Under the pieces are notes generated by a model. It made no database searches and was not told the origin of the DNA. It worked only from the letters and a program-made list of their open reading frames with translations. This document shows, piece after piece, positions 16,118-16,585 of a stretch of 64,000 nucleotides of DNA (position 1 is the first letter of the stretch; each line of letters begins with the position of its first letter). The position numbers and the translations under genes were made by a program. The stretch is from Eledone cirrhosa. Lineage: Eukaryota. The stretch covers positions 120,094,001 through 120,158,000 of the forward strand of contig OZ024742.1 in the NCBI GenBank assembly GCA_964016885.1, given 5' to 3'.

Positions 16118-16585
16118 TGGATGTATATATAATGTATTTTGCAATACACTTCATGCTTAATTAAAAGCATTTTGAAGACTGTAAGCTATTGTTTTAAAGT
16201 AGTGACAAATTCACTCACAATATATATACATCCATATATATATTGCTATTTGAGAGCTCCAATTCTAATTTTTAATTTCTGCCTGACCAACAACCGCTCT
16301 GCATAACCAGCTCCTGATTATTTACTAGATTTCTATAAGAATATAACATCAATGATCTCAGTAAACAGGTGGGGTAGTTGGCCTTGATAAGCTTCAACCA
16401 AAGCGAAACAAGACTTGTCGGCTTATCTCCCCTGTTTGCTGAGATTAAAGTGAGTGAATTTGTCACTACTTTAAAACAATAGCTTACGGTCTTCAAAATG
16501 CTTTTAATTAAGCATAAAGTGTATTGCAAAATACATTATATATACATCCATATATATATTGCTATTTCAGAGCTCCAATTCTAAT
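16118..16585 (+). mobile_element. Non-coding retrozyme-like element, 316-nt monomer with terminal direct repeat and inverted 5' arm
   Basis: Direct repeat 16221/16537 (offset 316); 16118-16218 is the reverse complement of ~16450-16551; internal hammerhead. Confidence 0.75.
16381..16422 (+). ncRNA. Type I hammerhead ribozyme, U3-A8 core variant
   Basis: GCC-TTGATAA-GCTT caacca AAGC-GAAACAA gac TTGTC/GGC; stem I extended by ATCTCAGTAAACAGG/CCTGTTTGCTGAGAT. Confidence 0.75.

What the first reader, a model, noticed from the sequence alone, without database searches (positions are those of the whole stretch)
16118..16585. 316-nt retrozyme-like monomer predicted to make a circular RNA
Seen: a ~48-nt direct repeat 316 nt apart brackets a non-coding unit with one well-formed hammerhead, plus a 100-bp inverted 5' arm. 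Established: metazoan non-LTR retrozymes are small tandem units with type I hammerheads that yield circular RNAs. Inference: reverse transcription ran once around a circular or multimeric template. The PLE-type inverted arm links this RNA to Penelope machinery.
Basis: partly seen in the sequence, partly recalled or inferred. Interest (0 to 1): 0.75.

Follow-up and report, generated by a model that had tools for sequence, protein, structure and literature searches.

The report
Two-armed ribozyme repeat, likely circle-copied
This is one of hundreds of young genomic copies of a 316-base non-coding repeat with a hammerhead self-cutting RNA motif, sitting in TA repeats as two back-to-back arms that end at two fixed points; it is likely a known kind of parasite RNA (a retrozyme) copied by a Penelope-type enzyme from a small RNA circle, although this copy has only one hammerhead and would not release that circle itself.

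Summary
Observation confirmed: a 49-nt repeat 316 nt apart, a type I hammerhead (U3-A8 core, covarying across sister families) and a 101-nt inverted arm. The unit is a young, protein-free tandem family (at least 429 insertions; up to 26 units) in a superfamily with 21,362 motif matches. Insertions sit in (TA)n as two head-to-head arms, one ending about 35 nt short of the other, the Penelope 'tail': 47 of 58 and 27-30 of 32 two-armed insertions; none had two equal ends. Inner ends vary, so the 49-nt overlap is incidental. In a younger 310-nt sister family arrays are near-clonal across both arms but differ between insertions, which favours repeated copying of one unit (circle, about 0.7). Correction: this copy has one hammerhead, so it is a product, not a circle source; 10 of 40 sampled insertions have two. 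RNA, cleavage and the partner enzyme are not shown. Verdict: new member of the animal non-LTR retrozymes, with useful mechanistic footprints. The scan reported the same architecture in other genomes (four earlier notes).

The parts
16117..16218 (-). Short arm; outer end is 'End B' (no tail), flush with the TA tract
   Evidence: Reverse complement of 16450-16551, 2 mismatches; same outer end in most insertions
16217..16219 (.). Head-to-head junction of the two arms, 2-3 nt microhomology
   Evidence: Overlap of the two alignments; sequence
16221..16585 (+). Long arm, 1.15 units; outer end is 'End A' (with tail)
16221..16269 (+). First copy of the 49-nt repeat (the part of the previous unit that was copied; length incidental)
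   Evidence: inner ends scattered
16270..16585 (+). One complete 316-nt unit, circularly permuted relative to the cut site
   Evidence: 316-nt spacing of genomic tandem copies; circular fold -73.1 kcal/mol, z -4.6 against 60 shuffles
16331..16339 (+). Conserved TATA-like box about 20-25 nt before the ribozyme hairpin; promoter role is inference only
   Evidence: Present in 8 of 8 aligned family representatives, which were collected with this motif as anchor, so the count is not independent
16353..16447 (+). Type I hammerhead with long stem I; U3-A8 core at 16384-16390; predicted cut after 16419
   Evidence: covariation in 11 sequences: 94% of cells paired, 9 of 13 pairs change on both sides, pair 3-8 is U-A in 7 and C-G in 4
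16479..16565 (+). Predicted three-hairpin domain closed by ATAGC/GCTAT; End B lies at the loop of the third hairpin; likely protein-binding and priming element
   Evidence: RNAalifold on 7 family representatives: 26 pairs, 4 with changes on both sides, covariation term only -0.61; single fold
16551..16585 (+). Penelope-type tail: about 35 nt between End B and End A (26 nt after the internal AT run)
   Evidence: 34 nt in the 310-nt sister family; tail described in PMC11167929 and PMC8557442
16007..16116 (.). Left (TA)n target tract
   Evidence: TA flanks at nearly all ends
16586..16900 (.). Right (TA)n target tract

Best explanation
The stretch is one insertion of a young, protein-free 316-nt tandem repeat family with a type I hammerhead motif, built of two head-to-head arms with two fixed outer ends, and it was likely written into a TA tract by a Penelope-like reverse transcriptase/endonuclease that primed both cut DNA strands on a likely circular monomer RNA. 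Steps: (1) inferred: a donor locus with two or more units in one arm is transcribed; (2) predicted: successive hammerheads cut out a 316-nt monomer that a host ligase closes; (3) inferred from insertion ends: the borrowed enzyme nicks (TA)n and starts one cDNA at End A and the other at End B, about 35 nt upstream on the RNA; (4) inferred from clonal arrays: each cDNA runs round the same template for a variable distance; (5) seen: the two arms meet head to head at short microhomologies; (6) seen: older arrays also grow by DNA-level duplication. This copy stopped after 1.15 and 0.32 units, holds one hammerhead, and is a dead-end product. Odds: retrozyme moved by a PLE 0.9; two-site priming of both strands 0.8; circular monomer as the main template 0.7; Neptune/Nematis-type partner 0.45.
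For: Family and multimers. End pairing: 77 insertions examined, 58 two-armed, 47 A+B, 11 with one broken end, 0 A+A, 0 B+B; 40 further insertions picked by End A alone: 27 End B, 3 more at u148-149 beside TA, 2 interrupted, 8 without a second arm, 0 End A; 50 sister-family insertions picked by End A (one, L131, from the earlier motif list): 42 End B, 0 End A, 8 unresolved. Arms are independent copies: inner ends coincide in 7 of 76 (5.1 expected), B longer in 30, A longer in 36. One template per insertion: subfamily sites mismatch in 16 of 524 comparisons within an arm, 8 of 437 between arms, 41% between insertions. Sister family: 38 arrays, 363 units, 20 haplotypes, 45 of 703 array pairs identical, yet 23 of 27 share the majority haplotype on both arms, and changes seen in one array only are fixed in every unit of both arms (L214 16 of 16, L197 20 of 20, L222 6 of 6, L133 6 of 6). 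No excess of changes at the cut site (20 of 1719 against 427 of 43344). Ribozyme under selection. Literature: two internal start sites make the tail and both strands are cut and extended in vitro (PMC11167929); retrozyme circles shown in coral and axolotl (PMC7229834).
Against: No cleavage, circle or transcript shown. The lowest-energy fold is a rod (-45.1) and the hammerhead fold costs 6 kcal/mol (-38.9). The clonality evidence is strongest in the sister family, not in the 316-nt family, where L019, L030 and L052 carry private changes in a subset of units on both arms, which one monomer circle does not predict; L207 has discordant arms; 60 of 363 sister units differ from their array. Arrays L031, L196, L197 and L220 show repeated variants, so DNA-level duplication or conversion also shapes arrays. 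Inner ends show a slight excess at the cut site (6 of 72 within 5 nt, 2.3 expected, p 0.03 uncorrected; asymmetry p 0.06), hinting at some cleaved linear templates. In PMC11167929 hammerhead cleavage was not needed and both strands used the same start sites; in the 2026 preprint only 1 of 9 dimers cleaved. No autonomous element with a homologous end was found. One chimera (L103) joins two tailed ends.
Confidence: 0.68

Rival explanations
1. Same element and same two-site priming, but the template is a linear, mostly uncut multimeric transcript of a genomic array; clonal arrays come from clonal donors plus DNA-level expansion and conversion, and any circles are by-products.
For: Subset variants on both arms in L019, L030, L052; higher-order duplications in L031, L196, L197, L220; slight excess of inner ends at the cut site; unprocessed RNA is the main substrate of the anole element in vitro (PMC11167929).
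Against: Array-specific changes fixed in all units of both arms, with almost no other change, need a one-unit bottleneck followed by repetition in both arms; arms of 18-30 units in near mutation-free arrays; mean difference between arrays is 3.5 changes while most units within an array are identical.
Confidence: 0.2
2. The template is the cleaved linear monomer, and the enzyme jumps end to end from one monomer to the next (or to the same one).
For: A few arms begin at or next to the cut site (L017, L082, L184, L244, L261, L268); discordant arms in L207 show that two RNAs can contribute.
Against: Junctions at the cut site are as clean as the rest of the unit; jumping among a pool of at least 20 haplotypes should give mosaic arrays, which are rare.
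Confidence: 0.07
3. The inverted arm is made by snap-back self-priming of one cDNA or on an antisense template, as proposed for rotifer Penelope elements, and the tail comes from endonuclease resolution.
For: Proposed in PMC3846280 and PMC8557442 (passages); short fold-backs occur at some junctions (L039, L086, L103).
Against: Inner ends are symmetric no more often than chance (7 of 76 against 5.1), and the tail-less arm is the longer one in 30 of 76.
Confidence: 0.04
4. It is only the truncated end repeat (pLTR) of an autonomous Penelope element, not a self-standing retrozyme.
For: All insertion hallmarks are those of PLEs.
Against: The unit repeats head to tail with no coding sequence in arrays of up to 26 units; none of 76 PLE or GIY-YIG loci has the unit as its end repeat, though only a small part of 10,597 candidates was seen.
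Confidence: 0.03

Closest known systems
Metazoan non-LTR retrozymes (Cervera and de la Pena 2020, PMC7229834: parts 2 and 4 of 6 and passages read; Li, Clavereau and Pollet 2026, bioRxiv 10.64898/2026.07.22.740005: parts 1-3 of 5 read, supplements not seen)
   Same: Non-coding tandem unit of 150-450 nt, low GC, one type I hammerhead per unit, dimers to large multimers, co-occurrence with PLEs.
   Different: The parts I read do not describe two-armed insertions with one tailed and one tail-less end (the word 'inverted' has 0 hits in PMC7229834), nor clonal arrays as evidence for the template. RNA and cleavage were shown there, not here. The core is U3-A8.
EN+ Penelope-like elements with inverted pLTR and tail (PMC8557442 and PMC3846280, passages; PMC11167929, parts 1-2 of 4)
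   Same: Inverted 5'-truncated copy, 30-40 nt tail at one end only, (TA)n targets, two start sites about 35 nt apart, start at a stem-loop downstream of the hammerhead.
   Different: No ORF; extended rather than minimal hammerhead; strict one-each use of the two sites on opposite strands, whereas the anole enzyme showed no strand difference in vitro; both ends have 2-10 nt of AT microhomology to the target.
U3-A8 hammerhead variant of Schistosoma PLEs (PMC4209133, passages)
   Same: Same covariation in the core; palindromic helix III that could favour dimeric folding.
   Different: Here it sits in a full-size hammerhead with a long stem I and alternates with C3-G8 among sister families.
L1 twin priming (recalled, not read; one search listed no paper tying it to Penelope in title or abstract)
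   Same: Two target strands prime two cDNAs that join head to head.
   Different: In L1 the second site is variable and the arms do not overlap; here both sites are fixed and the tailed arm stops near End B in only 6 of 53 cases.

Membership tests
Non-LTR retrozyme | Short (150-450 nt) non-coding unit in tandem copies | tested here: met
   316-nt period, up to 26 units; no ORF of 120 aa or more lies inside the unit
Non-LTR retrozyme | Type I hammerhead in each unit | tested here: met
   Motif, Rfam HH9 below cut-off, covariation, core nearly invariant in about 168 units
Non-LTR retrozyme | At least two consecutive hammerheads (the preprint's 'active' criterion) | tested here: not met
   Not met by this copy (one hammerhead); met by the family in 10 of 40 sampled insertions
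Non-LTR retrozyme | No LTR, primer-binding site or polypurine tract; TSD longer than 4 bp when present | tested here: inconclusive
   No LTR structure seen; primer sites not scanned; long duplications visible in a few insertions (5 of 59 rows flagged, clearest L011 and L131), the rest hidden in TA
Non-LTR retrozyme | Self-cleavage and circular RNA in vivo | not testable with these tools
   Needs bench work; genomic clonality is indirect
PLE-type insertion | Inverted 5'-truncated copy plus 30-40 nt tail at one end | tested here: met
PLE-type insertion | AT-rich or microsatellite target | tested here: met
   TA flanks
Autonomous PLE | RT plus GIY-YIG ORF | tested here: not met
   None in the unit or arrays; it works like a PLE substrate but is not an autonomous PLE
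Derivative of a specific PLE pLTR | Sequence homology to the end repeat of an autonomous family | tested here: inconclusive
   No such homology in 76 loci; strong hits were separate retrozyme copies, four weak hits (11-23 bits) not followed

The most novel reading that the evidence does not exclude
Each insertion is a fossil of one circular ribozyme RNA copied by a Penelope enzyme dimer that primes the two cut DNA strands at two different, fixed RNA sites, always one each, and rolls both cDNAs round the same circle; the 316-nt unit (promoter-like box, hammerhead, three-hairpin priming domain) is then a minimal, complete substrate for circle-to-genome retrotransposition, with a TA-targeting Neptune/Nematis-type element as partner.
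Probability: 0.4. Interest if true: 0.72.

Novelty: new member of a known kind. Interest (0 to 1): 0.5.

Why it matters
Two open questions meet here: whether animal retrozymes really move through their circular RNA (proposed in PMC7229834, called unresolved in the 2026 preprint) and how Penelope elements make their inverted repeats and one-sided tail (called undefined in PMC8557442). The family gives countable genomic evidence on both: strict pairing of the two ends and near-clonal arrays across both arms. It also names a short RNA, two start sites and a target that can be tested in the existing in vitro PLE assay. The class itself is known, this particular copy is inert as a circle source, and the scan has seen the same pattern in other genomes, which caps the interest.

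Tried and rejected
Rfam at gathering score: no match in the window. Sequencing runs: no RNA holder listed, so nothing on expression; four runs of unknown kind were laid as contigs: pieces of the unit occur in all four, two of them with the 316-nt joint, at low depth outside the first run; not used as evidence. DNA search with the 310-nt unit returned nothing because its words are too common; one end pattern lacked a base and gave 5 hits, corrected. First hammerhead alignment had wrong coordinates and was replaced. A-to-I editing lead: no strand bias in the 316-nt family (A>G 35, T>C 27; 2.4 against 2.0 per 1000); rejected here, although three subfamily sites in stem I are A/G. L1-style twin priming on one linear RNA and snap-back: rejected. 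Partner search: 40 loci of two PLE families, 30 GIY-YIG loci and 6 long-ORF loci show no end repeat homologous to the unit. Chimeras with PLE arms (L047, L039, L086, L103) are suggestive but may be nested insertions: three of the four have a junction at or beside the unit's internal AT run, and other repeats also abut broken arms. A target duplication at this locus could not be called: the shared 10-14 nt motif recurs ten times nearby. Paper searches; none listed a paper on paired ends or clonal arrays in retrozymes, judged from listings and the parts read; subscription papers and the preprint's supplements were not seen. No protein structure or complex jobs were run.

Full report
Observation. 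Bases 16221-16269 repeat at 16537-16585 with one mismatch, 316 nt apart, and 16117/16118-16218 is an inverted copy of 16450-16550/16551 with two mismatches. A type I hammerhead lies on the + strand: core TTGATAA at 16384-16390, stem II, GAAA, a palindromic helix III and a GTC ending at 16419. Rfam finds nothing at gathering score and HH9 at E 0.0012 below its cut-off, as expected for a U3-A8 core, a covariation already noted in Schistosoma PLE hammerheads (PMC4209133). In 11 sequences from this and sister families 94% of cells pair, 9 of 13 pairs change on both sides, and pair 3-8 is U-A in 7 and C-G in 4; slid controls pair 21-40%. I drew the structure from the window sequence and the sequences are related, so this supports selection on the fold, not activity. 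The predicted minimum fold is a rod 6 kcal/mol below the hammerhead fold.

The family. The window lies in a 3.0-Gb, AT-rich animal genome. The unit gave 127 matches, nearly all 95-100% identical, in the 40 of 1055 candidate places scored, many at 316-nt spacing; the 43-nt core has 150 exact matches; exact junction patterns count 429 tailed ends and 493 tail-less ends, the latter including some internal AT expansions. A two-motif pattern shared with sister families has 21,362 matches, and a 310/311-nt sister family has 1030 exact tailed ends. No array contains coding sequence of its own. This fits the animal non-LTR retrozymes (PMC7229834; 2026 preprint).

Anatomy of insertions. With u1 = 16420, outer ends fall at two places: End B at about u131-140, merging into TA, and End A at u164-173, about 35 nt further on. 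From 86 loci I dropped 9 as overlapping others; of 77 insertions 58 were two-armed, 47 with one End A and one End B, 11 with one end broken, none with two equal ends; 19 were single-armed or failed the filter. That set was chosen by similarity, so I took the first 40 not yet held insertions listed by End A alone: 27 End B, 3 more ending at u148-149 beside TA, 2 interrupted, 8 with no second arm, none End A. In 50 sister-family insertions: 42 End B, none End A, 8 unresolved by parsing, gaps or length. This is the inverted copy with a one-sided 30-40 nt tail of Penelope-like elements (PMC8557442; PMC3846280), and the tail equals the distance between two internal start sites of an anole PLE that cuts and extends both strands in vitro (PMC11167929). 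Inner ends are scattered, coincide in only 7 of 76 insertions against 5.1 expected, and either arm can be the longer. So the arms are two independent cDNAs, not a snap-back, and the window's 49-nt repeat is just where its long arm stopped. The region round the two ends has a predicted three-hairpin fold shared by 7 family representatives, with modest covariation (4 of 26 pairs); End B sits at a hairpin loop, as the anole start site does. Its role as binding site is inference.

Template. 95 of 105 arms in the first set and 29 of 40 tailed arms in the second cross the cut site, with no excess of changes there (20 of 1719 against 427 of 43344), so the template was closed or uncut at that point. 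Within an insertion, subfamily sites agree (16 of 524 mismatches within arms, 8 of 437 between arms, 41% between insertions). The younger sister family is sharper: 38 arrays with 363 full units carry 20 haplotypes, only 45 of 703 array pairs are identical, but 303 units equal their array's majority and 23 of 27 arrays have the same majority on both arms; changes seen in one array only are fixed in all its units on both arms (L214, L197, L222, L133). One unit copied again and again explains this best, and a circle is the simplest such template. Against it: subset variants on both arms in L019, L030, L052; discordant arms in L207; repeated variants in L031, L196, L197, L220 that show DNA-level duplication; a slight excess of inner ends at the cut site (6 of 72 within 5 nt, p 0.03 uncorrected; asymmetry p 0.06); the anole enzyme uses unprocessed RNA; and assembly smoothing of arrays cannot be fully excluded, though single-unit changes are preserved. 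I put the circle at about 0.7.

This copy. It has one hammerhead, so a transcript would be cut once and no unit-length monomer could be released. It differs from the family majority at five places, none in the core. Ten of 40 sampled insertions have two complete hammerheads in one arm and could be donors. Expression is untested.

Partner. At least two PLE families of this genome have the same paired ends and TA targets: one with RT and GIY-YIG matches and a C-X4-C-X2-C linker, hence Neptune/Nematis-type by PMC8557442 (no tree built), whose tail is 35 nt or longer, and a second, with a tail of about 60 nt, of which a fragment lies at 15326-16003 in the window. L047 joins a tail-less retrozyme arm head to head with a tailed arm of the first; L039 does the same with the second; L086 and L103 are further joins with the first, L103 with two tailed ends. 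Nested insertion can explain them. No PLE end repeat homologous to the unit was found in 76 loci, a small sample of 10,597 candidates. The partner stays open.

Novelty. A new member of a known kind. The class, the PLE link and the tail are in print; the strict one-each pairing of ends and the clonal two-armed arrays were not in the parts of the papers I read or in the listings. Interest 0.5.

Noticed in passing
G000:C1:1239400-1245200 (L127) and L128-L133, L193-L232: A 310/311-nt sister retrozyme family with a C3-G8 hammerhead and a two-pair palindromic helix III, at least 1030 insertions, near-clonal arrays of up to 30 units per arm; the best target for RNA tests.
   Followed up: yes
L026, L070, L103, L105, L113, L141-L146, L148, L186: Several older sister families, 68-87% alike, with the same two ends and alternating U3-A8 and C3-G8 cores.
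   Followed up: partly
window 15326-16003, minus strand: 3' fragment of a TA-targeting PLE family (2844 candidate places) with its own paired ends about 60 nt apart and, by eye, a minimal hammerhead-like motif near 15530-15570; a separate insertion 115 nt from the finding.
   Followed up: partly
L047 (G000:C1:159178000-159180520): Tail-less retrozyme arm joined head to head to a 5'-truncated PLE with an open RT plus GIY-YIG frame of about 460 aa and its tailed end.
   Followed up: partly
L031 (G000:C1:293635200-293643500): 26-unit single-arm array with a six-unit higher-order duplication: a retrozyme turning into a satellite.
   Followed up: partly
L011 and L131 flanks: Target duplications of roughly 35-50 nt visible where the TA tract is interrupted.
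   Followed up: partly
window 20017-23283 (+), fragments at 17548-18200, 39304-39990, 45513-46187: A 1088-codon open frame and fragments of an endonuclease plus RT LINE, RTE-like by recall.
   Followed up: no
window 27925-28515 (+) and 36373-37570 (-): Further PLE pieces: a GIY-YIG end (Pfam match) inside an inverted arrangement, and a piece that looks Naiad-like by recall (no Pfam match).
   Followed up: partly
window 56706-57068 (+): Short frame whose start resembles, by recall only, the membrane anchor of a polypeptide GalNAc-transferase; possibly the first coding exon of a host gene.
   Followed up: no
window 29600-34950: About 5 kb of nearly pure TA/CA microsatellite, GC under 10%.
   Followed up: no
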